Positions 7,186 through 52,600 of a stretch of 64,000 nucleotides of DNA are shown here, piece after piece. Source of the DNA: Prorocentrum cordatum. Taxonomy: Eukaryota. The position numbers and the translations under genes were made by a program. The stretch is taken from assembly GCA_963575745.1 (NCBI GenBank), contig CAUYUJ010000059.1, positions 1-64,000 of the forward strand, read 5' to 3'. A model generated the notes under the pieces. The model was given only the letters and a program-made list of their open reading frames with translations, was not told the origin of the DNA and made no database searches. How positions within the stretch are numbered: the first letter of the stretch is position 1; each line of letters starts with the position of its first letter.

Positions 7186-8727
7186 AATGTTCTTTCAGAG
7201 CCGCTGAAGCGGCTGGAGGAGGAAGAGGAGGAGGAGGAGGAGGAGGAGGGGGGCAAGGAGAGGAGAAACAGGAAGGAGGTGTTCGAATGGTCCTCAAAGC
7301 TTTTGTGACGTTTCCGTCTCGGAGGCTTTCAGAGGTCTGCAGGGGCTGAAGGAGGGAAGGCGGAGGAGGGAATAATGGGATGAGACCAAGCCCCCACGTG
7401 CCCAACTTGGGCCGAGCTCTTTATTGATGTCGGCCCCAGCCAGGCCGAGATGCCACGTCTACCAATGCCTGGGCCCGACGCGAGCCCAGAGAGGCTTGGC
7501 GTCGGCGGCGGTCAGTTCCCTTCTCCCTGAAAGGTCTAACCGCACTGTGGTGTTCCGGCCGATCAAGGATCAGAGGGATAGCAAAATGTTCGGTGTCCCC
7601 CCGCTACCAATTCATGGCAGATTGGCCACCAGACGGAGGGCATCGACGATGACTGATGGTTGAAGAACATCTGGTGTGGCTAACAGAGCGCGCACCCACC
7701 CGGAAGCCCGCCAATACCCAGGCACCACACATGTCCATCGCGCCTCTTTCCCTCCTCCCACCCCTCCTCCATCCATCCGTCCGTCCGACACTCCACCCCC
7801 CCGCCTCTCCTTCACCCGCCCGTTCCTCACTCCCCCTCTCATGCCCCTCCCCATCCTCCCCCCCTTTCCCCCAAGAAGAGCGAGACAAGCACAGCCTCCC
7901 GTGTATGGTGCCGCGTGCCAGTAAGCCATGGCGTGAGAGGAAGTTGCTCGAGAAGTCTTCAGGGCACAGCTTAACTACAGTAGGAGGTTTCTGGGTCTGT
8001 TTGCGGTGCCAAAGCGGGTCTGGAACGTTTTCGGTTTTGAGCCCGGTCCGCCTGGGAAAGTGTTGGGGGTCTCAATTCCATCGAGATGAGCCCCAGGGGA
8101 ACCCGTCCAATTGTCCCCCCTCGAAATCCAGGGGAAGGTAGTGCACATGTCTCACCTGGGGTCGTTTTTTGTTGAAGGTGTGGGTGCCTCGGTTCGAAAA
8201 CCCCGAGTCGAGGTGGCCAGCTTGGGACTGGCCTTGTTGCAGCATGTATGCATGACCCCGTCCCAGCAGGCATAGAAGGCCTGATCAAAATTCAGAGGTG
8301 GGAGGTCCCGTCCAGGAATGAAAAAGTTGAGTGACCTGACGTGGCCCCCGCCTTACCGAGGCTCATGAGGCGGGCACCGACCCGCCCAGGGGGCTGGTCT
8401 GCGGCAGCTGTCGCCCGTACACCTAGCAGCCAGATGTGCAAGCTGGGTTGCGAATCGTCTCCGCAGTCGTCTCCAACCCCTCCCCCCTCCTGAGTCCTCC
8501 TTCGCCTCCCGTCCCCTCCCCTCTTAATGTTCCCCTCCCCTCCCCTTCTCCCGTTCCTTCGCCTCTCTTATTGTTCCCCTCCTCGGTTCGCCCCCCTTCC
8601 CCTCTTCTCTCCCCCCCTCCCAAGAGGAGCTGGTTCTCCTGGGCGGCAGGGCCACGACCCCGGACACCCTCCCTACGGACCTGCAGGCGCTGCGGGACCC
8701 GTCGCAGCCGCCGTCGATCGACGACAG

Positions 8728-15124: not shown

Positions 15125-15277
15125 TAGGGGGCCACATGCGAACCCTACCCCTACCCCCCACGATTTCTGAGGGGAGGGTGGGGTTCACTTCGCTCGAGAG
15201 CTCCCGAACGAAGTGAACCCCACCCTCCCCCTCAGAAATCGTGGGGGGTAGGGGTAGGGTTCGCATGTGGCCCCCTA
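15125..15277. mobile_element. Foldback MITE
   Basis: Near-perfect ~68-bp inverted arms around a ~16-nt loop, flanked by the direct repeat TTCAA at 15120-15124 and 15278-15282. Confidence 0.85.
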
Positions 15278-16103: not shown

Positions 16104-17250
<1,147 letters not shown>

Positions 17251-18422
17251 TAATATGCTTACTTTGGGTGTTATGCGCATGACTTACATGATTAGTTGTT
17301 TTCTTATTATTCGTATTATCCTGTTTCGTCTTCCAAATCGATCTCTGGCCCCCCCTCGTCCGCGCACGTGCCTCGGGCCATGATGCGCTCCCCTTTTTCC
17401 CTGGCCCCCCCTTTTCCGGCTCACTCGACGCGAGGGGGAGGGGAGGGGGAGCGGGCTCCTAGTCATCAGGCATGTGGATAATGTCTTGCCTCTCGCCTTC
17501 CTCCTGCTCCTCCTCTTCTCCTCCTCCTCTTCCTGCTCCTCCTCCTTCCCTCCTCCTCCCCCTGCTCCTCGTTCTCTTCCTCCTCCTCCTCCTCCTTCCC
17601 CTTCCCCTTCCCTCTCCTCCTCCTCGTCCTCCTCCAACTCCTCCCATTCCTCCTCGCATTCCTCCTCCCATTCCTCCTCCCATTCCTGCTCCTCCTCCTC
17701 CTCCCTCCTCCTCCTCCTCCTCCCTCCTCCTCCTCCATCGTTCCTCTCCTCCTCCTCCTCCTCTCCCCCTCCTCCTCCTCCTCCTCCTCCTCCTCCTCCT
17801 CCTCCTCCTCCTCCTCCTCCTCCTGCTCCTCCGCCTCTTCCTCCTTCCCTCCTCATCCTCCTCTTTCTTAGGAATGAGACGAGGAGGAGCAGGTGCAGGA
17901 GGAGGAGGAAGAGGAGCAGGAGCAGGAGGAGGGGAGAAGGAGGGGCGAGTTCATCCCCCGCCGAGAGGATCAGGGGGGGACCAGAACTGAAGACATCCTG
18001 GGGTTGCACATGATGTGGCCGGCCGGGGCGAGAGGCAGATGCACACGTGGCCAGATGCTTCTCCGGCGTACACGGCCCTCCGATGGCCGTGTGCGCTGGC
18101 CCTGCGCACGGGGACTGTCTTCTTGGGACTGTCTTCTTGGGGACTGTCTTCTCGGGGTCGGGGGGGGGGGGGGGCAAGAGGGGGGTGATGACTAGGTGGG
18201 GGGGGTTGGATATCCTGGCGGGGGCCGTGATATCTCCCCGGAGTTCATGGCGCTTCTTCTCATCTCAAAGCGTCCCCCGCCCCGCCGCCCCCCCCCCTTC
18301 CCCTGGGCCGCGCGCGTGCCGCCGCGGTTGCGCAGGTCCTCCGAGGGGGTACGCAGTGTTGGTACGCAGTGCTGGTCGGCTGCCCCAGGCGAAAAGCTTG
18401 GGTGATCAGCCGGCACCTCCCC

Positions 18423-18609
18423 CGGGCCGGACGAAAGGGGGGGATTGGGAAAGGGGGGGTTACGTACGGAATTTGCTGCATGCAGCTGGTTTCGGCCCCA
18501 CCGAGGGGCCCATTCCTCGATACACAGCCGCCTCCGGCGCCGGGAAAATCAGCTACGTGAGCTGATTCTCAAACCCTCCCATTGCTATCCCCCCCTTTCG
18601 CCCGACCCG
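18423..18609. mobile_element. MITE family A, copy 2
   Basis: Same TIRs and internal sequence (AATTTGCTGCATGCAGCTGGTTTCGGC..CCCATTCCTCGATACA) as 14897-15089, with different flanks. Confidence 0.8.
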
Positions 18610-20899
18610 ACTCCCCCCCAACGGATAACCCAGGTTGTCGCCGAGAAAAATATGAAGACGATCTCGCGTCAATCCAGCACATGGCCTCCAGACCAAGGCT
18701 CGAGCTGAAACGGTGTTCTGGCGATCTCGCGGGCCGTTGTCGCCTCGCTCTGGTTTCGCGGCAGAGGCAGAGCGAGGACAGAGCGAACGAAAACGGAGAA
18801 CAAAACGAAAACGAAAACACCGTCTAGCTCTAAGTCGGGCCTGTCCCTCTACAGGGGGGATATGCAAAAATAGTGAAAAAATAGTCTGGGGGCGATTTGT
18901 TGACATTTTTTTTTGCATCTGGGAGGTATTTTTGGGTATTCGTCATTTGTCGCCCAAAATCCCCCCTGTGGGGGGACACGCCCGACTTCAGTCCAGCTCG
19001 AGCCCTGCTCCAGACGCTCCACGCGGGAGTCCAGCCACGTGCGGTGCCAGCTCCCCAGCAGCCCCCGCGCGCCCCGAAGGCGGCCACGGGCTCCCGCTCG
19101 CTCGGGCAGGGGCAGCAGCTGCGCACGGTGAAGCCCCCGTCCTCGAAGCCGAGCCGGCTGTCGAACTACGAGGACCGCCGTGGTCATCGTCCTCGTCCTC
19201 GTCCTCGTCGCCCTCCTCGCCGAAGAGGAAAAATAAAGGTAACAAAATCCTCCTCGGCGTCGCCGCCACCGTTGTCCTCAGTTTGGGTGTCACGGTCATC
19301 GTCGTCGCCCCCATCGTCGTTGTCGTCATCGCCGTCGCCGTCGTCGTCCCAACAACACCCCCTGCCTTTGGTCTCACGCGCACTCCTACCTGTACCAGGT
19401 TCTCATGCATGGTCCCCCCTGTCGGAGTAATTATACTTTGGGCATCATCGCCGCCATGGCTGTTGCCACGACTCGATTTGCCCGAAATCCTGGTCAGAAC
19501 GCGCTCCAGGACATGTCCAGGAGTAGATTCCTGATTTCGATGGGAGACCCAGGCTGCAATTGTCGGAATAACCGCACCCCCTCAGTGATCCACCACATTT
19601 TTTATTGAAGACTTGCGATGGAACAAGACAATCCTGACCAGTCGTTGTTCGGTAGGGCCTGTTTGGTTGACTCCGGGGCTCATCTGGCTCTGAAAAGAAG
19701 GGAGGGGCCAGCCGACGACCGCGGTGCGAGGAGCCCGAGGAGGCGATCGAGAGCGAGGCGGAGCTCCTCGAGCGCTACATTATACCGCCTTGGCCGTAGG
19801 AGACCCCGACCCGTCCACTCAGCGCTCGGTTAGGCTGCCGTCGAGGATCGAGGTTTGATGTCAAGGCGTCAGGTTCTGGAAAGTTTCTGCATCGTATCGG
19901 CCGCTTCTGGGTTCCAGGACAGTCACGAAAAAATCCGAGGCGACAAACCGGTCCCCTGTAGAGGGTCGAGAGTTCCAGGGGCCGTGGGCTGCGAATCTGA
20001 ACGTCGGAGGTCTGGGTGCTTGTCGTCGTCCTAGGATCGATGCTCGAGGATCAAGGGATTTTTGACGCGGTTCGTGTTTTTGTTGCGGCCCTCTCTGTAA
20101 ATGCATATGTATATAAGAAACACACATATATAATTGAGTAAATCCCAACCAGTGGATGGGTTGTTATCCGCCACCGTGCCTCGAGGCACGACACAGAGTG
20201 TTCACCAGGCTTCCAGAGTTCACTATATTCTGTATTCCAAGAAGGGGCCCCGACCATGCATTGCCAGACTGTTCGGGTTCCGATTAGCAGAGCGGCGCTC
20301 TGCTATTTTGCCTCAAGGTTTGCGCACTCGCTGCTCCTCCCCTCATTCGCAGAGCTCTGCTCTACTCATTGGCCTGAAAGCAGGGTTCCCCATCCTGCTC
20401 GTGCTCTGTTGAACAGAGCGCCGCTCTGCTAATTCGCCTCAGAGCATCTGCGCGTTCATTGCTCCTCCTCTCGTTAGCAGAGCGCCACTCTGTTAATTTG
20501 ATTCAGAGCATGCGCAGTTGCTGCTCATGCTTTATTCACCCGAGAGGTGCTCCACTAATTGCTCCCATGGGCGCCTTGTGGAGCCCATGATCTTCCGAGA
20601 GGCATCCCGAGAAGCCCTCATATGCATCGAACAGGTCTATGACCCACAACCCAGGCCCGGTGGCGGGATTGGCAGTTGGCACACACACACACACATGTGT
20701 ATATATATATGTATGTACATCGGAATGCGTATGCGTGTAAGTGCTGTGCGCACATGTGTATATACACATGCGTAGCTACACATATCCATTCCGTATACGT
20801 AACTATCCCTCTATATACGATGAGGATACCTGTAATGTTTATTATCACCCCCTTCGGGTATCCAACGATAAGACGGTACATGTGCTGACCTCGGGTCCG

Positions 20900-22950
20900 C
20901 GTGTTTACAAGTTCGGCACGGCACGAAACATACACGTTCACCATGCAAGGGCAGCACGGATGCGTTACGCGAGCAAAGGTGGAACGCCTGCGGGGCCCCA
21001 TGTCCCACACATGCCCACACGGGGTGGCAGTTGTCAAGAAACCATCAACAGGAACGGATGGGGCGCCAGCCCTTATTATAACATTGTTCAGACAGGGCCC
21101 CCTCACATTTTACTGAAGACACGTGTCCCCAGCATTGTAGAAGCCATACCAATATCCAGAGAAAGTGGTACTCCACAGAAATGATCCAGCCAGCGAACGT
21201 ACACCATCCCAATCACCATTGTATCTGATGTCGCGCGTTCAGGATCCTTGATGCACCAAAAATGTATCACATACTGGACACCACTACTCAACAAAGAAAA
21301 CGTCAGGCCCCAATTGAACCTCAACGTCGACTTGAAGCTCGGGTTCCACTTCGCTATCTTCTGCATGCTTGCGCCCCTACCCAGGCCCTTCAGCTTCGTC
21401 ACCAGTTTGCCTTTTGACGCCTTGCCTAGCGTGGCAGAGAACACCGTCACTCGCAGAATGGAACACAATACGGCGCGGCTCTCCGTCTGTTTGCCTTGGG
21501 CCATCCGCAGGAGTTCGAGCGGGGTACGCAGAAATAGGGGACGAGCTTCCTGCACCGTTTCCCTCCGACTCCTTTTTGACCACGTCCAACCGTTGTATCA
21601 ACTCCTTTGTTTGCCTGGCGACTGGACCCTGTGCGTTGAAGGTCACGCGGTACACCTCGTTACCGTTGATCCGCATTCCCGCCGTTTTTTGTGCCGTCGT
21701 TTCTCAACGCCATGAGGGGTCGTGGCATACATCGATCAGTAATTTTTGCTGAGACGACCCCACGCTGCACCAACTCTCTAAACCGTTCCGAATGCCGCCA
21801 CAGCGATGATGTTTCCCCTGATGTGTGTTACCATCTGTCTTGACCATTGCCTGGTACCCGTACACCTGCATCCGTGTCTGTATTTCTTCTTCTGGCGTGT
21901 CTCCGTATTCCGTTGATTGTAATGCGTATTCATGCGTCTGCTCGCTGGCTTGGTTGCCCAGCTTCGTCATGACAGACTCCTCTCCTGGCCTGCCTTTCAT
22001 GCCCTCCCTATTCCCCGTAGCGGTGTCCCCCTTGCGTTTCGCGACGAGCCAGGCCATGAGGGGCAGGCTGGATGACGCGATGTAGTCCGAGCTCTGCTTG
22101 CAAATGCTGAATCAGGATATGGTTACGGAGCGCATCTACACCATCAGTTTCGAACTCGCACGTCGGAGAGTTCCGTGCATACCAGGCAACCGCTCCATCG
22201 TGTTTGGTTCGTCCAGTTCGGCATGCCCTGGTTTTAAAGTCCCTGGTCATGTGATACATTTCAGCAAATACACTTCGTAGCAAATACAGCTCTGCAAGCC
22301 ACACAAAACTGTTAGCAACACACCACAAGCTTCCGAAGAGCTACCGCCCACGAGTGCCATGTCTACGCCTCGCACAGGGCACTGCTGATCGTTGCTGCGT
22401 CGGGGCACAGGCCCCGCCCTTCCCCATCCGGTCCGGTCCCGGCGCAGCACACCGACAGGGCCCCCTCGTTCGAGTGGTCTGGCATGCTGTACAGATTCCT
22501 GGCTGTGCGCTCCAACGCAGGACTCGAGACCCTGCGCGTGTAAGTTGATAGAGTCCTCAACTCCATTCGCGATCACATCCGCGGGGTTCTTGCACCTCTC
22601 TCAGGGATAGCGGCTCCGTCGTCAAAAGCCTGCAGTGCCTGAATATCGCAGAGAAAGTGCGTGGCCCATGTATTCACAGGAGAGCCTCTGGAGGCCCTAG
22701 CCAGCGTGGACTCGATGTCCTCGAGTGCACCAAAAACGACAAGGAACTGAGCGGGCCGACTCGGATGTTTCAGGCATTGTTGGAACCACTTGAGTCTACG
22801 CGTTCGCAGCTCAAGATGAGTAGGCACTAAACTCACAGCGCGCAACACACTAATATTACAGTCCGTTTCCCATGCATCATTCGTTAAGGTAGCCGCACCC
22901 TTTGAAAGAACGCGTGCGCATTTGGCTGGCATGCGATCGACAGGAGCCCG
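20900..22950 (-). mobile_element. Decayed LINE fragments: RT C-terminal tail, then ORF1-like region, then APE start
   Basis: ELRTRRLKWFQ..HP (post-RT region), a zinc-finger-like remnant TCEFE..LRNHILIQHL, the ORF MAWLVAKRK.., then KIAKWNP (APE first-strand-like). Confidence 0.5.
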
Positions 22951-23229
22951 GTCGGCCTCGCGCGACAGCGCAGAACTTGTCGCGAGACGTTATGCTCCCG
23001 AGAGGCTCGCATGCATTGCGTGCTCGTTGAAAAGGTTACACCGCCATTTAAAGCGCGCGCTCGAGGTCCAGACTCGCTCCGAGGAAAACCAGGCCGTTCT
23101 TCCAGCCTGAAGCCTGAAGCCGATGCTGAAATCCGCGCAACGCAAGCCTCGAGCACAACCTGGGCCCAGGTACCCGGCTATCGCGACGGTCCTTCCCTGC
23201 ACTGGCGCCCCAGGAGGTGCGCTTCGGCG

Positions 23230-23790
23230 CCGAGTTTCTCGAGATTCCCTGCTGGGGGGCAAGGGGCGGGCGCAATTTCAAGAAACCCCTCCGCGTCCTT
23301 AAATCTAGCCGCTTGGGAGTTTCTCGAAATTCACCGCTGGGGGGGCGGGAGGCAAACGCAATCTCGAAGGACTGTGCCGCGAAGGACTGGCGATTAAACG
23401 CTCCTCGAAATTCCGCGCCAGGGCAGGGGGCTGCAATTTCGAGAAACTCCTCCGCGCCTGAAATCTGGCTGTTTGGGAGTTTCTCGAAATTCCCCGCTGG
23501 GGGGCGTGGGGCGGGCGCAATTTCGAGAAACCCTTCCGCGGCTTGAAATCTGGCCACGCGGGGGGGCGAGGGGCGGGCGCAATTTCGAGAAACTCTTCCG
23601 CGGCCTGAAATCTGACCGTTTGGGAGTTTTTCGGAATTCCGTCCCCCCGTCGCCCCCGCATTGGAAATCATGGAGTTTATCAAAAGTGCCGGCTTGAAAC
23701 CTATTTTAAGAAACTCCAGTTTGGCCTGATCAGCGGCTTGCAGAGGAGTTTCTCGAAATTTGGCCGCGGCGACAAGCGGAATTCTGATAC
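23230..23790. repeat. Diverged tandem repeat with alternating inverted motifs
   Basis: GAGTTTCTCGAAATT and its reverse complement AATTTCGAGAAAC alternate several times. Confidence 0.75.
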
Positions 23791-23869
23791 ATTTCCATGT
23801 AGTTTCATTCTTGGATTGCAGAGGATTTTCGCAAAATATGTTTTGAACAAGAAATTCCCAGAAACGCAG

Positions 23870-24610
23870 CTCGACCAGGTACCCCACCGAGGGCCCCAGT
23901 GGCTGCGCTCGAGTGGCACCACCGCACCCATTCCGGCACCCCTCACACGTTTCGCGGCCCCGTAGGAGTGTTGGTTGCGCTCGCATGGCGCTACCGCGCC
24001 CATGTCGGCACACCCCTTACACGTTTCGCCGCCCCATAGTAAGCCCCACCGAAGGTCTCAGTGGCTGCGCTCGCGCGGCACCACCGCAGCGATTTCGGCA
24101 CCCTTCACACGCTTTGTGGCCCCGTAGGGAGCTCCACCGAAGGTCCCAGTGGTTGCGCTCGCACGGCATCACCGAGGCGATTTTGGCACGCCTCTCACAC
24201 CGTTCGTGGCCCCATTGGTTGCGTTCGCATGGCACCACCGCGCCCATTTTGGCACACCCACAGCACGCTTCGTGGTCCCATGAGGAACTCCACCGAGGGC
24301 CCCACTGGCTGTGCTCGCATGGCGCCACCGTGCTGATTTCGGCACACCCCTCACACGCTTCGCGGTCCCATAGGGAGTCCCACCGAAGATCCCAGCGGTT
24401 GCGCTCGCATGGCTCCACCAGACCCAGTCCGGCACCCATCGCACATTCCGTGGCCTCATGATGAGCTGAATCGAGCCCCAATGGCTGCGCTCGCATGGCA
24501 CCACCGCGCTAATTTCGGCACACCCTTTCACACGTTTCGTGGCCCCGCAGGGAGCCCCACCGAAGGTCCCAGTACCCCGTACGCTTCGTGGCCCCAAAAG
24601 GAGTCCTACC
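23870..24610 (-). repeat. Diverged tandem repeat related to the 77-bp satellite, opposite orientation
   Basis: Recurrent GGAGCTCCACCGAAGGTCCCAGTGG..CGCATGG, the reverse complement of the satellite core, at ~75-80-bp spacing. Confidence 0.8.
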
Positions 24611-24814
24611 GACACCGATCGGTACCCTCATCGCGGTATTCCCAATTGCAGAGGACTGGGTTTTTCGCCAGTATATTTCGCAGAGGATGGTGGGGGGGGT
24701 CGAACCTGGTTTGGCTGGTGTCATACGAAGACATACTCGAAATTGAAGACGGGACATACTCGCATGTAACTTGCACGTCCACAGAAGGGGGGCGGCCCCG
24801 GCCTCGGGAGGGCG

Positions 24815-25950
24815 GTGGGCCCCAATTCCTTGTAGAAGGGAGAGCCTCTGTGATGCGACATGCGATGTGCAGTACATGTGGTGCGATGTCCGTTGTGCAG
24901 ACAAGTTCGAGGCGGTGACAGCGGCAACGTTTTACCGGGCGAAGAGCGGTATAACATAAATTTTCCGCCGTCGGGGGCGCCTGCCCTTGGGCGGCTGGAA
25001 AGTTTATACCCCTACGGTGCCACCGTAAGGGGGTATTATTTTTTTCAGCCGCCCAGGGGCAGGTGTCCCCGACGGCGAAAAAGTTTGGTTTACGCCGTTC
25101 TTCGCCCGGTAAAACATAGCCGCCAGACCGACAGACAGGCCCAGGTTTTGGCGGCGACGAGGCAGCGACGGGGCGGTGACGGCGACAACATACAGTCGGG
25201 GCGCTGAAGAAGGAGCCCTTCTCGTTTGGGAGGGGCCCCGTGTCCCTTAATCGTTTCACAGCTTGCCTTCTGTTTTCCGCAGGTGTTCGACGGGACACCG
25301 AAGTTTCACTCCTGGAAAAAGGGGGCCTCGTTCCTAATTTCTGGGGTTCCTTAGGTCAACGCCCCGACGGTAGCCGCCAGACGAACAGACAGGCCCAGGC
25401 CTCGGGAGTGCGGTGGGCCCTAATTCTTTTTAGAAGAGAGGGCCTATGTGATGCGACATGCGATGCGCAGTATGTGTGGTGCAGAGTCCGTTGTGCAACC
25501 TAGTTCGAGGCGGCGATAGCGGTAACATCGCCGCCAGACCGACAGACAGGCCCAGGCTCTGGCGGCGACGAGGCAGCGACGGGGCGGTGACGGCGACAAC
25601 ATACAGTCGGGGCGCTGAAGAAGGAGCCCTTCTCGTTGGGGAGGGGCCCCGTGTCCCTTAATCGTTTCACAGCTTGCCTTCTGTTTTCCGCAGGCGTTCG
25701 ATAGGGAAGCCGAAGGTTAACTCATGGAAAAAGGGGGCCTCGTTCCTAATTTTTGGGGTTCCTTAGGTCAACGCCCCGACGGTAGCCGCCAGACGAACAG
25801 ACAGGCCCAGGCTCCGGCGGCGACGAGGCAGCGACGGGGCGGTGGCGGCGACGACGTAGCCGCCAGACGAGCAGACAGGCCCAGACAAGCGGCGGCGACG
25901 GGGCGGCCGACGGCGGCAACACGGCCGCCAGAGCCGATAGACAGGCCCAG
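24815..25950. repeat. Local tandem duplication (~410-bp period) with GCCGCCAGAC..GACAGGCCCAG subrepeats
   Basis: ~25120-25400 matches ~25530-25812, and ~24815-24928 matches ~25410-25528. Confidence 0.85.
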
Positions 25951-26418
25951 CTCCTGAGTAACGGGTGACAGCACCAAAGCGCAAGCATTGATTGGGGAAG
26001 AGGGAAAGAGAGAGAGAGAGAGAACAAAAAAACAGGATACATATATACATATATATATATATATAGAGAGAGAGAGGAAACATACATATATAGAGAGAGA
26101 GACACACACGGAAGCCGTGCACGTCAGAGGTGCAGTGGCACGATGCCGAGGCAATCTGACATGGTACAGTTTCGGCGGCGCTGCTGCAGAACACATGTGA
26201 ATCGACTGAACGGTTATTACTTCTATTTCAGGGCCTCTGCGGGTCTCAAAACAATCTTGAAAGCACTTGAGGGCCCTGGAGGTAGTTCTGAGACGTCCCG
26301 GAACTAGACTTCTCGTGTCTCGAAGACTGCCGATCTGCCATTCGTTCGGGATCGGATCGGTCAACAGGGCCATCGATCAGCGGTCGCCTTCGCGTTGGGG
26401 CGGACACAGCCAGATCAG

Positions 26419-26907
26419 GGTCGCGATCGGGCAATGAATCAGCCTGGATCGGTTTGCGCGCTTATAAGGCCATACCACAAGCGCAAATTCAGATGGGACT
26501 GTCTGGTTGGCGTCCTGATAATCTATAGCGCCCTGACCATCCCGTTCCGCGTCGGCATGGATGTCGACAAGTCGGGTATCGAGACGGGCATTGACTTGTT
26601 GGTCGACTTGTTCTTCTGCGTCGACATGGTGCTCAATTTCAGGACGGGCTTTGTGGACGGCGACGGGCTGATCAACACGGTGCCAAGCGAGATCCGAAGC
26701 CGGTACTTGAAGACATGGTTTGGTATTGATTTGTGTTCTACGGTGCCCGTGGACCACCTGATGGACCTCGTGGCCTTGGCCACCGGGTCGGACGGGTCGG
26801 GGAGATCGGCCAGGGCCCTGAAGATGTTCAAGACCCTGCGCCTGCTGCGCCTGCTGAAGCTGGCCCGGCTTCTGAAGATGGGCCGCCTGGTCCGCTCTTT
26901 CGAGGAG
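26419..26907 (+). CDS. CNBD-family voltage-gated K+ channel (KCNH/HCN/CNG-like), exon encoding S1-S4
   Basis: The translation has IRPYHKRKFRWD..YSALTIPFRVG (S1), DLFFCVDMVLNFRTGF (S2), YLKTWFGIDLCSTVP (S3) and KTLRLLRLLKLARLLK (S4). The donor is GAG|GT at 26907/26908. The 5' boundary (cag|G at 26418/26419) is tentative. Confidence 0.9.
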
Positions 26908-27099
26908 GTGTCATGGGTAAAACGACGCGAAGATCGGGACAAAATCGGATCGGGACAATTCGAAATCTCCGAGAACCGGCGGGCTTGGAGGATGTATTGG
27001 GCGCCGCGGCCGCTCTCAGAGCGTTCCAGAACGCTCTGAGAGCGCGCCGCGAACGCTTTGGAGCGATTTATCCCGATCCTCGCCCTGTTTTTCAGGGGC

Positions 27100-27283
27100 A
27101 ACGTCAGGGGGGGATAGGCTCTGAGGAAACGCATCGACCCTCAATTGTCCACTCATCGCCGATCGGGGCCCGATGGCCCATCCTGTCCAGGAGCGTGCAG
27201 TGTCGTTTTATAGGGGGCCTATCGACGACGCGTCGCCGATGACAGGTCGATGTTTCCTCCCCTGAGCCTACCCCCCTTGACGT
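27100..27283. mobile_element. MITE-like element inside a channel intron
   Basis: ~38-bp imperfect inverted repeats: ACGTCAGGGGGGATAGGCTC..CATCGACC pairs with GGTCGATG..GAGCCTACCCCCCTTGACGT. Confidence 0.6.
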
Positions 27284-27294
27284 ACATCCCAAAG

Positions 27295-27761
27295 GTGGTT
27301 GAAGTCTCGCCCATTGTTGTCAAATGCTTTAAGTTATCCGGGCAGCTTATCATTCTCGCCCACGCCATCGGCTGCTTCTGGTTCCACATGTCGACTCACC
27401 AGGACGTCAATGCTGACGGGTGTTCGTCGGGAATGTTGGGTTGTTCACCGGGTGATTCGGCCACCACGTGGTGGGAAGAGATCAACATTACTGCAGACGA
27501 CAAGGGGGAGCAGTACATTGCGTCCTTGTATTGGGCATTCACTACCATGACGACGGTCGGCTACGGCGACATTATTCCCAAAAACAGCTACGAGCGAGTG
27601 TACGCTATCATGGCCATGCTGCTGGGGGCGCCCATCTTCGGCTACATCGTCGGGTCCATCGCTGCGCTGGCGGGCCAGAACAACAGCACCTTTGAGGCGC
27701 AGGGGAAGAAGCGAGTCGGCACCGCGCTGGAGTTCTGTGCCGAGCAGCAGGTGGGTAGGAG
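27295..27761 (+). CDS. K+ channel exon encoding S5, pore and S6
   Basis: AHAIGCFWF (S5), YIASLYWAFTTMTTVGYGDIIP (K+ selectivity filter) and IFGYIVGSI (S6). The aag|G acceptor is in phase 0 with the previous exon. The donor is AG|GT at 27761/27762. Confidence 0.92.
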
Positions 27762-27765
27762 GTAC

Positions 27766-27912
27766 CGGGGCTCGACCTAAACGGTGTCAGGGTGATTCCG
27801 TGGGCCGCTCTCGCTTCGACCTCGTTTCGCATATCAAGGGCGGAACGAGGGCAGCACGAGGGAAAGCGAAGACGAGACCACAACGGAAGACACAGTCATA
27901 GGTCTAGCCCTG
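27766..27912. mobile_element. hAT-like MITE forming an intron (introner-type element)
   Basis: The 8-bp direct repeat GGAGGTAC flanks it at 27758-27765 and 27913-27920. The TIRs are CGGGGCTCGACCTA and the reverse complement of the right end, CAGGGCTAGACCTA. Confidence 0.8.
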
Positions 27913-27916
27913 GGAG

Positions 27917-28574
27917 GTACCGCGAGCGGCTGCACAAACACTACCAGTTCTTGTATCAGCAGCGCGCTCCACACCTCGAGCCGCACCTGCTGGCGTCGCT
28001 GTCTGGCCCGCTGCGGAGGGAGGTCACCGTGCTCATCAACCGCCACGCCATCAGCAAGATCTGCCTATTTGGCGCCGGGTCAAGCGACACGCCCGACCAG
28101 CAGCTGCCGAGGTGGTTCGTGGCGTGGGCGATGCGGCTACTGGAGCCGCAGACGGCCGCAAAGGGCCACGACATCCTGATCGCGGACGAGCAGGCCGCCC
28201 CGCACGAGATCTTCTTCGTGTACGAGGGCTACTGCGAGGCGTACCTCCAGGCGCCCAGGTGCAACCGCGCCAGGAATCTGCCCGTGGACGTGCTCGAGAT
28301 ATCGTCCGCCGACGGGACGGAGGACACACCAGGCTCCGCTGCGCGCCACTCCGGGGGGGCCCACCACCGCCGGGAGCAGCAGGGCGGGGCCAAGTCCCCG
28401 GAGACCGCCGGGAGCAGCAGGGAGGACGCCGGCGCGCACGCGGACGCGGGCGGCGCCGCGCCACGGGCCTCCCTGTCGAGCTCGACGACGCTGATGGTGT
28501 TGGGGCCGGGGTGCATGTTCGGCCTGGAGCACCAGCTGGACAAGAGCCTCCATTACTCGGTGCGGTGCGGCAGG
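27917..28574 (+). CDS. K+ channel exon encoding the C-linker and most of the cyclic-nucleotide-binding (homology) domain
   Basis: RERLHKHYQFLY..LLASLSGPLRREV (C-linker), then EIFFVYEG and LGPGCMFG..YSVRC (CNBD strands). It splices in frame with the previous exon (VGRR/YRER). The putative donor is a non-canonical GA at 28575. Confidence 0.85.
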
Positions 28575-28891
28575 GACCGTGGGCGAGAAGAAGGCTGACA
28601 GAGGAGGAGGAGGAGGAGGAGGAGGAGGAGGAGAATGAGGGGGAGGGGAGGGGAACACAGGAGGAGGGGGGAGGACGATGATAGGGACGAGGGTGATAGG
28701 GGGGACGAGGGACAGGAGTCCGCGGCCTCGCGGGCTGGGTCCCTGGGCCGCGACCCCGCGGATACGGGGCGTTTTTTCACGGATGCCCCGCGCAGAACGT
28801 GTCCGTGCAACGGCGTATCCGAGGGACCGCGTCTCCGAATCCAGAGCGCGAGGGCGCGGGTACGGATAGGTATGTTCGCCGCTCGTGAGAG

Positions 28892-29019
28892 GAGGCGACC
28901 TGCTTGTTGTACGTGCTCAGGCAGTCGGCGATCGTGGAGGTCGCGCAGGCCTCGCCGGAGATGGCTTCCACCCTGCGCAGCGCAACGACCGCCGCCCTGC
29001 TCCGCCAGATGAAGCTGAG
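28892..29019 (+). CDS. K+ channel exon encoding the end of the CNBD
   Basis: ag|GAG acceptor. EATCLLYVLRQSAIVEVAQASPEMASTLR continues the CNBD pattern (C.L..L....). The 3' boundary is uncertain (AG|GT at 29019/29020, or slightly later). Confidence 0.65.
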
Positions 29020-29593
29020 GTCGGCAGACTACGACTGGATCCGGCGGCACCCTGGGCGTGGGCGAGGATCGGGACAGGAGGAGGAGGAGGAGGAGGAGGC
29101 GAGGCTTCTGGGGCGCCCGTGGGTGTCGCGGGGGTGGCCGCGCGGTCGGGCTCCGCGGTCGCGGGCCAGGGGGGTCTCTGTTTACCCCAGGGGCGGGGAG
29201 GACAGCGGGAGTCGACACTGACGGGGGTCAGCCAAACCTTGCTGGCTGGAGGCATATCTCTAGCACTGTGATTGGCATGGCCTTGTCTCGATGCCGATCT
29301 CAAGGAGGATGTCCTCAGTTTCCGAGGACGCATTCCTACGATTGTCGTCGCTTTCAGGCCTGCCCATCCTGGGGATAGGGATAAACTCAAGGCTGGTTAG
29401 GTGGTCTCAGGGCCCCCCAGACGGGCAACATCGGGTCGAACCTCGAACACATACTTTCGGAGGTTCGCATGGACTTCTTGGATCGGTGATAGACCCCTAG
29501 CGGCGCCTCCGGCGCCGCCCCTGGCGCGCTCCGCGCGCCTGGAAGGGGGTCCAGCGCCGATCCACGGAATCTGCGTTGTTCTCCGAGATGTTA

Positions 29594-30472
<879 letters not shown>

Positions 30473-49671: not shown

Positions 49672-52600
49672 CTCATCATTCTCAGTCCAGGACGGGTGCA
49701 TGTTAGCTCCAGCTCGAGCGGCGTCGTCGGCAGCAGAACTCCCCAGTCGCCGCCGCCGCCCGTCAAAATCTAAGTCAGCTTCATTAGGGTCCAAGTGGGC
49801 TTTGACCTTCTTAACACCGCTAACCCTCTTGGACCCTTGGTGGTAAAACTGCGTCATTCCAGCGTAGGGCCTAAAGTAGCTAAGTTGCTGCTCGTGAGGC
49901 TGCTGGCTTTGCTTGACAGCGCTAAGGAAGTCTGAGTATATAAAGCTAGGACCTACCAGTTGTAGGGGAGGCATAGCTAAACTCTGAAATTATCCAGCTT
50001 GGGGGGGGGGGAAGGGGGGCGGGGGCGGGCCCGAACAGCCTGCCTTCGACTTCACCTTCCGCAGTCAAGCGCACAACTCCCCACCCCGCTCGTTGAAGCT
50101 CAGGAACAATATGTCTGCTACAGCTCCCATCTATGAAAACACTCCCTTGGAACTCGGCATCCCCTCTGTTTTCGCCGGCCCACTTCATGTCATGTGTTCC
50201 AGGCTTTGCTGGGCGAGGGTGATTGTCGCCTGGGTGCTCGAACAATCCACGGCTGCACAGAAGCTGTTCGACAGGCCCCTCTGCTGCAAGGGCTCGATCG
50301 ATGTCTGGCTATTCAACGACATCCAACCGTTGATCCTGACAGCTGGTACATTCCCACAGACGATGGAACTCCGAGTCGTCGCATTTCCGGCACAGCGCAC
50401 ACTTAGTGGTCGGAACTTGATACCCGCACTCTTTCGCGCGACTCGGAGTCCAGATCGCACCGCAGACCAGCGATTTCACACATCCACGACCGAGCGGGGT
50501 CGATCGCTTGGATCGGAGCTTCGCTCGCGGCACGTCAAAACACAATCGGGGAAAATCCACATTCGCCTGGCTGCTCGCATCGCGCTCCAACGACCTAAGC
50601 ACAGCACTGAACAGCAGGCCCTTGAGGAGCGCTGGGGGAATATAGGTAAGAAGCACCTCTCCTCAAAATCGCCCTTCAACGTGGCGGAATATTTCATGTC
50701 CCAAGAAATTCTCCTCAACGATAATTCCAGAGCCGGCAGTGGGCCCTTGACCTTCTTCCACTCCGTCACCTCCTCCCCCTGGTAACCAATCTCCCACGCC
50801 GCCGTCAGCTCCTGAAGCGGGATGCCGCGCGGGCAAGAGTGGGCGTGAGCGGCCCAGATCTCTTTGGCGCATCGGAGGAACGAGGCCACTTCGCATCTCC
50901 AGGATGGGACATCCTCCAAAATCATAAGTGAGGTGAGCGAGCGTCCAGCAGCTTGCGGGCGCAGAACCTTGCCCGCTGGCTGCCTGATTAACAGAGCTTC
51001 TCTATCAGATATGCCGTGAACAGATGCCCCGTACTCTATGCACGGTAGCGAACCAGAGACGAAGATGCGCTTAGCGTACCTGCCCAGGGTTTGCTTCATA
51101 CCCTTCAGTTTCCTGGCTTGCTTCCTGAACTGGTGCATTATGATCTTGAACTTGGAGGCTCTGTTGCGGGCCCTGCGAGGTCCCCCCACCGCATCGTCGA
51201 TCCCCAGGTTCGTCGCACTCTGGACAACTGGCCCAGCAAGCTCCCAGAAACAATCCCTTGAGTTTTTGGGCCACCAGCTTGTCGGAGCAAACGAAATTGG
51301 CTTTGTCCGTTGAAACTGAACAGCCGGATTCCGTAACGAACATCTGGTATAGGGCAGCAGAAGACTCTTTGATATTTCTAACAGACTCTTTCGCCGTGCC
51401 TACGCAGTTCAGCCCCGTGTCGTCGATATACTGATCTATGTTCACAGAGGGAGGGAATCTGGACATCAGATTACCATGCGGGCCTAGCATGTAGATCCTC
51501 ACGAAGGTGGTCACCAAACTACACCCTGCGAGAACCCCAAGTAAAGCATAATGGGGTCCAGACACCATGGAAGAAATGCAGAGGTATCTAGCGATCGCCA
51601 TGGGAAACCCAAATTCTTTGCACTGGTTCAGGAGCCTATCTAACTGGAACGTCTCATAGAACTTCGTCATGTCCCACAAGAGCGTCGCTGATACTTGACC
51701 TCTGGATGCGCCTACTTCTGGTCGAAAGGCCTGTCGCCAAACGACGTCGCAGGCTGCGGCAACTTTCGGCCCTGCGAAGTACGGTCTCATGCGGGCGAGT
51801 TCCCATTGCTGGGCATGCACCCTTCTACAGCGACCCCAAAGCCTAAACAAGGAAACAAACAACCCGATCGGACGCCAACCTCCCGTGGGTTTCCATTAAG
51901 AGGGCCACCTGGATCGCACGAATTTGCGGGGGCAGCGTGGACAGGATTTCGACCGGGGAAAGCAGAAGGGGCACCACCTCAAGGCCGTTGTCGGAAAGCC
52001 AACTGTAATGTTTCAAGTGAAACCCGTCCACACTTTGGGCAGGACGGACAGGGCACCTGGACGAGACTCCTCTTATGAAGGCTGGCTCCAGGCGCGGGAG
52101 GGCGTCTTGGACTCCTTCGAACCCGCGGCCCATGAGGGGTTCGGACGTAGCTTTCCACAGGCCACTGAATCTGTCAGATTCCGTGCGGAGCAGGGAAAGC
52201 GGATCGGAAATGACCAGGCCCCCAGCACTTAAAGTGGTAGTGGGCTCCCACCCTGGCGCTGGCTTCCTAGCAAGATGCGCATTCCTACCTCCTTTATCGA
52301 TGTTCGACAACAGCCAGTTTTTCCGACCCGCCCCAACCTCCTCCTGGGTCTTGGCCTTAACTTCTTCGTACTCCTTCTCCACCTTAGCCAGAACAAATGC
52401 CACCTGAGTGCTGTCCATCCCTTCGGGTGAGCAGGCATCTGAGGCAAGCGCCGCAGCAGCATCGAGAGTGCAACGATGCTCTCCGATGCCGTCGAGCACA
52501 AACTTCGGCGGCGGCGACCACTCGCCGCGCAAGGTCGGCCGCTCCTGGCCTGCCTGAAAATGCCCAAACACCTGCCGAACTCGGTTGTCCAGCCACTTCA

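What the first reader, a model, noticed from the sequence alone, without database searches (positions are those of the whole stretch)
27758..27920. Intron created by a hAT-like MITE whose target-site duplication supplies both splice sites
Seen: the 155-nt intron (27762-27916) equals a 147-bp element with C(A/G)GGG-starting TIRs plus one copy of the 8-bp duplication GGAGGTAC. The AG|GT inside the duplication acts as donor in the left copy and acceptor in the right copy, so splicing restores the original frame exactly (QQVGRR-YRERL). Known: 8-bp TSDs and CAGGG-type termini typify hAT elements, and introner elements generate introns in algae, including dinoflagellates. Inference: this is a scarless intron gain by what may be an undescribed introner family.
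Basis: partly seen in the sequence, partly recalled or inferred. Interest (0 to 1): 0.85.

Follow-up and report, generated by a model that had tools for sequence, protein, structure and literature searches.

The report
Transposon-made intron in a dinoflagellate channel gene
A 147-base miniature transposon landed inside a coding exon of a dinoflagellate potassium-channel gene, and it is spliced out exactly because the 8 bases duplicated at its insertion site supply both splice signals; this is a clean example of an intron-making mechanism already described in dinoflagellates.

Summary
A 147-bp element (27766-27912) has 14-nt terminal inverted repeats (12/14). It is flanked by a direct repeat that is 10 nt long (GGAGGTACCG); the best register is an 8-bp target-site duplication, GGAGGTAC. 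Transcript contigs from 4 of 4 public runs join 27761 to 27917 (GT..AG, 155 nt removed). The spliced protein is colinear with 19 homologues.

A second, diverged copy lies at 18694-19007, in a long intron of the same gene. It has a perfect 8-bp duplication (CTCCAGAC) and 13/14 inverted repeats, so this is a real transposon family with 8-bp duplications. These two copies are the only such structures in the window outside microsatellites (simulated expectation 0.04).

The closest annotated protein (99% identity) is from Prorocentrum cordatum. The mechanism is in print: Roy et al. describe Polarella classes that take both splice sites from the duplication, and classes with 8-nt duplications. Gozashti et al. 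2025 list "co-opt both" hAT introners. The P. cordatum genome paper reports pattern-defined introner elements in 2.4% of introns.

Not shown: that the family makes many introns, that it belongs to hAT (no transposase found), or that the intron is absent in orthologues. No genome was available.

Verdict: real, well supported, a new member of a known kind.

The parts
27758..27765 (+). Left copy of the 8-bp target-site duplication GGAGGTAC. Its AG (27760-61) ends the upstream exon and its GT (27762-63) is the 5' splice site.
27766..27912 (+). Copy A: a 147-bp non-coding hairpin element (MITE-like) that forms the body of the intron.
27766..27779 (+). Left terminal inverted repeat, CGGGGCTCGACCTA.
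27899..27912 (+). Right terminal inverted repeat (reverse complement CAGGGCTAGACCTA), matching the left at 12 of 14 positions.
27913..27920 (+). Right copy of the 8-bp duplication. [quoted passage not shown] The repeat runs on by chance or design to 27922 (10 nt in all).
27762..27916 (+). The 155-nt GT..AG intron, phase 2 (inside an AGG Arg codon). As RNA it folds into one long hairpin.
   Evidence: joint 27757->27913, 10 ambiguous letters, GT..AG at cut +4; -68.4 kcal/mol, z -4.96
27295..27761 (+). Upstream exon: S5, pore (TTVGYGD), S6 and the start of the C-linker of the second channel unit.
27917..28574 (+). Downstream exon: C-linker and the region corresponding to the cyclic-nucleotide-binding domain that full-length homologues carry.
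   Evidence: PF00027 is among the Pfam domains precomputed for full-length homologues. This exon's own translation gave no Pfam family.
18694..19007 (+). Copy B of the same family, in the same orientation, inside the long intron upstream of exon 19080-19175. Its termini are CAAGGCTCGAGCTG and (reverse complement) CAGGGCTCGAGCTG, 13 of 14 matching. It is 71% identical to copy A over 140 nt.
18686..18693 (+). Left copy of the perfect 8-bp duplication CTCCAGAC of copy B.
19008..19015 (+). Right copy of the perfect 8-bp duplication CTCCAGAC of copy B. It contains no AGGT and is not a splice junction.
18830..18990 (.). A different 161-bp hairpin element nested in copy B (30-nt TIRs, 90%), flanked by GTCTAGCT and GTCCAGCT (7 of 8). 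Without it and one flank copy, copy B is 145 bp, close to copy A's 147 bp.
26462..26907 (+). Exon (S1-S4 of the second channel unit) of the same gene.
26908..27294 (+). Neighbouring 387-nt GT..AG intron, phase 0, flanked by a 5-nt AGGTG repeat.
28575..28891 (+). Neighbouring 317-nt intron with a GA..AG boundary (non-canonical donor), phase 0.
28892..29064 (+). Next exon of the same gene.

Best explanation
A ~146-bp non-autonomous, hairpin-forming cut-and-paste transposon inserted into a coding exon. Its family makes 8-bp target-site duplications and has CA(A/G)GG-type termini, which is hAT-like. The exon encodes the C-linker of a two-unit potassium-selective (GYGD) channel; full-length homologues carry a cyclic-nucleotide-binding domain. 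The genome is a dinoflagellate's, and the closest annotated protein is from Prorocentrum cordatum. The staggered cut fell on GGAGGTAC, and gap repair duplicated it on both sides of the element. Each copy contains AG|GT. The spliceosome uses the GT of the upstream copy as the 5' splice site and the AG of the downstream copy as the 3' splice site. That removes the element plus exactly one duplication copy (155 nt), so the mRNA equals the pre-insertion sequence. Shown: the anatomy, the 8-bp duplication in two family copies, the exact junction in RNA contigs, and colinearity of the product with homologues. Inferred: transposition in trans by an unseen transposase. Also inferred: the long hairpin brings the two splice sites together and helps recognition. 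Also inferred: the insertion survived because about 2-6% of exonic 8-mers carry AGGT or AGGH, and only insertions at such sites are harmless at once.
For: Anatomy: searches show the 10-nt direct repeat and the TIR arms. The intron equals element plus one 8-bp copy. Specificity: outside microsatellites, only copy A and the homologous copy B meet 'perfect 8-bp TSD plus 12-nt TIR with at most 2 mismatches' in 64 kb (simulated mean 0.04, maximum 1 of 100). Family: copy B is 71% identical over 140 nt, E 1.8e-10; nhmmer gives E 2e-42; it has a perfect TSD CTCCAGAC and 13/14 TIRs. Splicing: one long contig in each of 4 of 4 runs (X13 and X17 recorded as poly-A RNA; X1 and X2 of unknown kind; 4 studies) joins 27757 to 27913, skipping 155. 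Ten letters are ambiguous, and GT..AG falls at +4, that is 27761|27917. No other letters differ in the flanking exons. The same contigs also skip the 387-nt and 317-nt neighbouring introns, so they are spliced mRNA, not an empty-site allele. Product: the 99%-identical annotated protein P0002 carries …EQQVGRRYRERL…. There is no indel around the junction in an alignment of 20 homologues. Hairpin: MFE -68.4 kcal/mol, z -4.96, 0 of 200 shuffles as stable. Site availability: 30 of 1716 exonic 8-mers contain AGGT and 101 of 1716 contain AGGH. Precedent: Roy et al. preprint, parts 1-2 read; Gozashti 2025 dataset rows.
Against: Only one intron-forming copy was seen, and the second copy sits inside a long intron and makes no splice site. 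So a dedicated 'introner' habit of the family is not shown. No DNA run holding the locus was found: all holders had about 0.59 of the words, as expected for transcripts. The element's presence in DNA therefore rests on the assembly itself. Because the direct repeat is 10 nt, the TSD register is inferred from TIR symmetry and from copy B. The left terminus is CG, not CA. No transposase domain appeared in 94 of the 221 ORFs of at least 130 aa that were scanned. No further copies were found by a metagenome pattern scan, a viral-contig scan or a protein-library search with the element's translation. Whether orthologues lack the intron is unknown.
Confidence: 0.85

Rival explanations
1. The mechanism is the same, but the element is not hAT. 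It belongs to another superfamily that also makes duplications of about 8 bp, or to an unclassified dinoflagellate family.
For: No transposase or autonomous partner was seen. The left terminus of copy A is CG rather than CA. About 72% of introner families could not be confidently categorised in Gozashti et al. 2025 (section 6 read). The Polarella 8-9-bp-TSD 'co-opt both' families seen in their dataset are labelled Unknown. That several other superfamilies give roughly 8-bp duplications is recalled knowledge, not tested here.
Against: There is an 8-bp TSD in 2 of 2 copies. Three of 4 termini start CA(A/G)GG, which fits the hAT terminal pattern as recalled. The TIRs are short (14 nt).
Confidence: 0.4
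2. An ordinary intron was already at this position, and the element later inserted into it.
For: Copy B and at least two other hairpin elements do sit inside pre-existing long introns of the same gene.
Against: The intron is exactly the element plus one duplication copy (147 + 8 = 155 nt), so no nucleotide is left over for an older intron. The duplicated 8-mer is coding sequence in the spliced mRNA.
Confidence: 0.03
3. The intron arose without transposition, by tandem duplication of an AGGT-containing exon piece or by filler DNA captured during double-strand-break repair, which also leaves short direct repeats.
For: A short direct repeat containing AGGT flanks the intron. A neighbouring intron also has a 5-nt AGGTG repeat at its ends.
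Against: The insert has terminal inverted repeats. It also has a homologous copy elsewhere with its own perfect 8-bp duplication of a different sequence. That is the signature of transposition, not of exon duplication or random filler.
Confidence: 0.03
4. The joined form seen in the runs is an empty-site allele or a processed copy present as DNA, not the product of splicing.
For: All four runs are Logan contigs. Two are of unknown kind, and the tool warns that RNA libraries can hold DNA.
Against: The same contigs skip all three introns in the stretch and continue for about 2.4 kb of upstream mRNA. Two runs are recorded as poly-A RNA. All holders carry about 0.59 of the stretch's words, matching the exon content.
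Confidence: 0.02

Closest known systems
[quoted passage not shown] Source: Roy et al., bioRxiv 10.1101/2020.10.14.339549, parts 1-2 read. The journal version (Curr Biol 2023) was seen only as a reference entry.
   Same: A dinoflagellate host; a TIR DNA element in an exon; the intron equals the element plus TSD; AG|G(T/C/A) inside the duplication gives acceptor and donor. Class 3 has an 8-nt TSD, with the splice sites able to fall at several registers.
   Different: A different species and, as far as tested, different sequence. Here only one intron-forming copy is known, against hundreds to thousands there. The text I read does not name a class that combines an 8-nt TSD with both sites inside it; class 3's 5 frames may include it.
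hAT-classified 'co-opt both' introner families in Gozashti et al. 2025 (PMC12130899, dataset file 8 rows seen), for example Panicum virgatum fam14 (157-bp element, 16-nt TIR, 8-bp TSD).
   Same: A small non-autonomous TIR element of about 150 bp, an 8-bp duplication, and both splice sites co-opted from host sequence.
   Different: Those families are in plants, fungi and tunicates and were classified with RepBase or domain support. Here the hAT call rests on TSD length and termini only. 'Prorocentrum' gave 0 hits in the 12 of 14 supplementary files searched.
'Introner elements (IE)' reported for the P. cordatum genome (Dougan et al., PMC10666404 and its preprint; passages and the supplementary note read).
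   Same: The same species, going by the best protein match. Their working definition is an 8-20-nt inverted repeat and a 3-5-nt direct repeat within 30 nt of the intron ends. This intron meets it. They report IEs in 2.4% of introns and in 8,934 genes.
   Different: Their call is pattern-based only. The passages I read give no families, no TSD length, no superfamily and no statement on which splice sites come from the duplication. Their table of IE-bearing genes was not among the two files held, so I could not check whether this gene is listed.
Aureococcus and Micromonas introners (Huff, Zilberman & Roy 2016; known to me from the description in Roy et al. and from recall, paper not read here).
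   Same: A DNA transposon generates an intron, with a splice site recruited from the TSD.
   Different: In the pattern Roy et al. describe for Aureococcus, one splice site is carried by the element and only the other comes from the TSD. Here both come from the TSD and the element carries neither.

Membership tests
Introner / introner-like element, 'co-opt both' type | The intron consists of a transposable element plus its target-site duplication. | tested here: met
   147-bp TIR element plus one 8-bp TSD copy equals the 155-nt intron.
Introner / introner-like element, 'co-opt both' type | It is spliced precisely from transcripts. | tested here: met
   The 27761|27917 junction is in one long contig in each of 4 of 4 runs. 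No retained-intron contig was listed, though contigs cannot show absence.
Introner / introner-like element, 'co-opt both' type | Both splice dinucleotides lie in host-derived duplicated sequence, not in the element. | tested here: met
   GT at 27762-63 lies in the left TSD copy and AG at 27915-16 in the right copy.
Introner / introner-like element, 'co-opt both' type | There is a family of similar copies that form introns in many unrelated genes. | not testable with these tools
   No whole genome is held. Two copies lie in the window and only 1 forms an intron. The metagenome, viral and protein-library searches found no more.
Introner / introner-like element, 'co-opt both' type | The gain is recent: the intron is absent at the same site in orthologues. 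| not testable with these tools
   Only proteins or transcripts of relatives were reachable. They show colinearity but not gene structure.
P. cordatum 'introner elements' as defined by Dougan et al. | An inverted repeat of 8-20 nt and a direct repeat of 3-5 nt within 30 nt of each intron end. | tested here: met
   The 14-15-nt arms start 4-5 nt inside the intron ends, and a direct repeat of at least 5 nt spans the boundaries.
hAT superfamily (non-autonomous member) | An 8-bp target-site duplication. | tested here: met
   Copy A: GGAGGTAC in the symmetric register of a 10-nt repeat. Copy B: perfect CTCCAGAC.
hAT superfamily (non-autonomous member) | Short TIRs with a conserved terminal pattern (C/T)A(A/G)NG. 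The pattern is recalled and comes from no call. | tested here: inconclusive
   Three of 4 termini fit (CAGGG, CAAGG, CAGGG). The left end of copy A is CGGGG.
hAT superfamily (non-autonomous member) | An autonomous partner with matching termini that encodes a hAT transposase. | not testable with these tools
   None in the window: Pfam on 94 of 221 ORFs of at least 130 aa gave only Ion_trans, Ion_trans_2 and one RVT_1. The genome is not available.
MITE (miniature inverted-repeat transposable element) | Small, non-coding, with TIRs and a TSD, and present in more than one copy. | tested here: met
   147 bp and about 145 bp (copy B without its nested insert). TIRs and TSDs are present in both copies. 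The genome-wide copy number is unknown.

The most novel reading that the evidence does not exclude
The two copies belong to an uncatalogued family of about 146 bp with 8-bp TSDs and hAT-like termini (CA(A/G)GGCTCGA…). On this reading the family has created many Prorocentrum cordatum introns purely by landing on AGG(T/C/A)-containing 8-mers. The element itself carries no splice signal, and its full-length hairpin is what makes it spliceable. Any 8-bp-TSD MITE would then be a latent intron generator in dinoflagellates, with about 6% of exonic sites permissive.
Probability: 0.35. Interest if true: 0.45.

Novelty: new member of a known kind. Interest (0 to 1): 0.3.

Why it matters
This is a single-locus, RNA-verified illustration of how a DNA transposon can turn into an intron in one step without carrying any splice signal. 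It occurs in a bloom-forming dinoflagellate whose introner content has so far been reported only by a generic pattern search. It gives a concrete seed for cataloguing a family in that 4.75-Gbp genome (size from the abstract seen): a two-copy profile, the termini and the 8-bp duplication. With that catalogue one could ask whether intron creation there comes from specialised elements or from ordinary MITEs that survive only at AGGH sites. It does not change the current picture of intron gain.

Tried and rejected
1. Whole genome: none is held, so copy number, TSD statistics and enrichment at AGGT could not be computed.

2. Metagenome scan with a 19-20-nt degenerate motif conserved between copies A and B. 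It returned 10 loci. BLAST of the element against them matched only the motif itself in 8 of the 10 and nothing in 2, so these are chance hits, not copies.

3. The same motif in viral contigs gave 0 matches.

4. The element's open frame (53 aa) was searched against 1.84 billion protein representatives to fish for copies inside predicted proteins. There was 1 hit (E 9e-6). It is a 618-aa repeat protein matching one short repeated stretch, which I judge unrelated.

5. Earlier findings of this scan: 3 look-ups, all empty.

6. Rfam at E<=1 over 18600-29300: 12 weak matches, none on the element or copy B, all far below gathering scores.

7. Alternative donor at 27750/27751 (CAG|GTGGGT): with the acceptor at 27916 the intron would be 166 nt and shift the frame. 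No contig uses it.

8. P0020 (92% identical, JGI, 1543-nt contig) was considered as a possible intron-less genomic relative. It also lacks the other two introns, so it is most likely a transcript and says nothing about gene structure.

9. No DNA run holding the locus was found. Parts of the stretch without contig cover are not evidence of anything.

10. Element N nested in copy B, the two hairpins of intron 26908-27294 and intron 28575-28891 were compared with the window. No further copies were found; the many matches of the last intron are a GGA/GAG microsatellite.

Full report
**What is in the sequence.** The direct repeat is 10 nt (GGAGGTACCG, at 27758-27767 and 27913-27922), not 8. The inverted arms are 27765-27779 and 27899-27913 (15 nt, 87%). 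In the register that makes the two termini symmetric, they are CGGGGCTCGACCTA and CAGGGCTAGACCTA, matching at 12 of 14. In that register the duplication is the 8-mer GGAGGTAC and the element is 147 bp (27766-27912). GT (27762-63) lies in the left duplication copy and AG (27915-16) in the right one. An intron of 155 nt therefore removes the element and exactly one duplication copy. Unspliced, the upstream frame meets a TAA at 27778-80.

**Is it more than chance?** The 8-mer alone is not unusual: it matches 3 times in the window, and 24 of 100 shuffles reach that. The combination is unusual. I scanned the whole window for a perfect 8-bp duplication next to 12-nt termini with at most 2 mismatches, 60-800 bp apart. 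The scan returned 184 rows. All but two lie in an (AGT)n array or a TA run. The two others are this element and a second locus at 18686-19015. One hundred Markov-1 simulations gave a mean of 0.04 such structures per window and never more than 1. A second scan with 14-nt termini and duplications of 4-10 bp again gave only these two at 8 bp.

**A second copy shows it is a transposon family with 8-bp duplications.**
- BLAST of the element against the window found one relative at 18697-18832 (71% over 140 nt, E 1.8e-10). A two-sequence profile scores it at E 2e-42.
- Its true right end is further out. The termini CAAGGCTCGAGCTG (18694) and, in reverse complement, CAGGGCTCGAGCTG (19007) match at 13 of 14. 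They are flanked by a perfect CTCCAGAC on both sides (18686-18693 and 19008-19015).
- The extra length of this copy (314 bp) is explained by a different 161-bp hairpin element nested near its right end (18830-18990). That element has 30-nt TIRs at 90% and is flanked by GTCTAGCT and GTCCAGCT. Without it, the copy is 145 bp.
- Copy B lies in the long intron upstream of exon 19080-19175 of the same gene, in the same orientation. Its duplication has no AGGT and it makes no splice site.

**The junction is used.** No whole genome is held, but 20 public runs hold part of the stretch, nearly all with about 0.59 of its words, which is the exon share. I laid four of them, from four studies, on 24600-29500: X13 and X17, recorded as poly-A RNA, and X1 and X2, of unknown kind. 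All are Logan contigs.
- Each run has one long contig (1685-4701 nt) that joins 27757 to 27913. It skips 155 nt with 10 ambiguous letters, and GT..AG falls at +4, that is 27761|27917. No letters differ in the flanking exons.
- The same contigs skip 26908-27294 (GT..AG) and 28575-28891 (GA..AG after shifting by one). Three of them carry about 2.4 kb of upstream mRNA.
- They are therefore spliced transcripts, not an empty-site allele.
- No contig uses the alternative donor at 27750/27751, which would in any case shift the frame.

**The gene and the organism.**
- The upstream exon searched against the protein library gave a 99%-identical 551-aa protein named by its source as a partial product of Prorocentrum cordatum. 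It also gave an 85%-identical 1421-aa transcript-derived homologue.
- The annotated protein reads …EQQVGRRYRERLHKHYQF… across the junction.
- The homologue maps to window exons at 8624-8704, 19080-19175, 26461-26910, 27292-27768, 27915-28574 and 28868-29074.
- The window exons carry Ion_trans and Ion_trans_2. The exon upstream of the element holds a TTVGYGD pore motif. The precomputed Pfam domains of full-length homologues add a cyclic-nucleotide-binding domain.
- In an alignment of 20 homologues from dinoflagellates, stramenopiles, green algae and oomycetes there is no insertion or deletion around the junction. Splicing therefore restores a conserved, continuous C-linker.

**How it most likely works.** A transposase supplied in trans made a staggered 8-bp cut at GGAGGTAC in the exon, and repair duplicated the 8-mer. 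Because the 8-mer contains AG|GT, the left copy offers a donor and the right copy an acceptor followed by G. Roy et al. describe that context as typical of dinoflagellate introns. The element itself brings no splice signal. As RNA the intron folds into one long hairpin that pairs its two ends (-68.4 kcal/mol, z -4.96, 0 of 200 shuffles as stable). That should bring the two splice sites together; this step is inferred. In the four exons of this gene, 30 of 1716 8-mers contain AGGT and 101 of 1716 contain AGG followed by A, C or T. A few percent of exonic insertions of such an element would thus be harmless at once, and the others would be removed by selection; this too is inferred.

**Comparison with what is known.** The mechanism is in print.
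- Roy et al. (preprint, parts 1-2 read) describe 15 classes in Polarella glacialis. Several have 8-nt duplications, and classes 12-14 recruit both splice sites from an AGGH duplication. Class 3 (8 nt) makes introns in five registers and both orientations.
- The dataset of Gozashti et al. 2025 has a 'co-opt both' category. It includes Polarella families with 8-9-bp duplications. It also includes hAT-classified miniature elements with 8-bp duplications in plants, fungi and tunicates.
- The P. cordatum genome paper reports introner elements in 2.4% of introns and in 8,934 genes. It defines them only by an 8-20-nt inverted repeat and a 3-5-nt direct repeat near the intron ends. The present intron meets that definition.
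- 'Prorocentrum' gave no hit in the 12 of 14 supplementary files of Gozashti et al. that were searched.
- A full-text search for Prorocentrum plus introner found 7 papers (6 listed). Judging by their titles and abstract starts, and by the introner passages read in two of them, none gives families for this species.
- A search for introner, hAT, target site duplication and splice site as whole words found no paper.
- A family-level description for this species was therefore not found in those searches. The kind of element and the way it makes an intron are known.

**What is not shown.**
- Only one of the two copies forms an intron, so the family may be an ordinary MITE that happened to land on a permissive 8-mer.
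- The hAT label rests on the 8-bp duplication and on three of four termini starting CA(A/G)GG. That terminal pattern is recalled, not tested.
- No transposase domain was found in the 94 of 221 ORFs of at least 130 aa that I scanned. I left out the shortest ORFs and some overlapping or microsatellite-derived ones.
- No DNA run of the locus was available, and orthologues' gene structures could not be reached.
- Attempts to find more copies in metagenome contigs, viral contigs and predicted proteins failed.

**Verdict.** It is a well-preserved single example of a described mechanism in a species already reported to be rich in such introns. The interest is modest. It would rise somewhat if a genome-wide search showed a large, young, uncatalogued family.

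Noticed in passing
window 18830-18990: A different 161-bp hairpin element is nested inside copy B. It has 30-nt terminal inverted repeats (90%) and is flanked by GTCTAGCT and GTCCAGCT (7 of 8). No other copy is in the window.
   Followed up: partly
window 15125-15277: A 153-bp almost perfectly self-complementary element (96% to its own reverse complement) with perfect 14-nt termini TAGGGGGCCACATG, flanked by TTCAA on both sides. It lies in the long intron of the channel gene and is a different miniature-transposon family with a shorter duplication.
   Followed up: partly
window 28575-28891: RNA contigs splice this intron with a GA..AG boundary. That gives …VRCGR|EATCLLYVLRQ…, which matches the homologue P0001. 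The deposited protein P0002 instead continues …VRCGRDRGDLLVVRAQ…, which looks like a frame-shifted tail from a mispredicted splice site.
   Followed up: partly
window 26908-27294: The neighbouring 387-nt intron is flanked by a 5-nt AGGTG repeat. It contains at least two hairpin units (arms 26919-26943/27067-27091 and about 27095-27127/27255-27283) plus a perfect 16-nt palindrome arm pair at 27011-27044. In run X1 many short high-depth contigs hit 26896-27059, suggesting a repeat expressed from many loci.
   Followed up: partly
window 8624-29064: The channel gene is very extended. Exons matching homologue residues 714-740 and 759-788 lie at 8624-8704 and 19080-19175, so introns of about 10 kb and 7 kb separate them from the next exons. 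The first ~700 residues are not in the window.
   Followed up: partly
window 51074-51895 (-): An ORF with a reverse-transcriptase domain (RVT_1, E 6e-9), probably a retroelement fragment.
   Followed up: no
window 16104-17252, 17499-17863, 29594-30459: Very long microsatellites: (AGT)n of about 1.1 kb, (TCC)n of about 0.36 kb, and (TG)n/(TGCG)n of about 0.85 kb just downstream of the channel gene's mapped exons.
   Followed up: no
window 23971-24546: A tandem array with periods of about 90 and 244 nt (70-80% matches) in the intron between exons 19175 and 26462.
   Followed up: no
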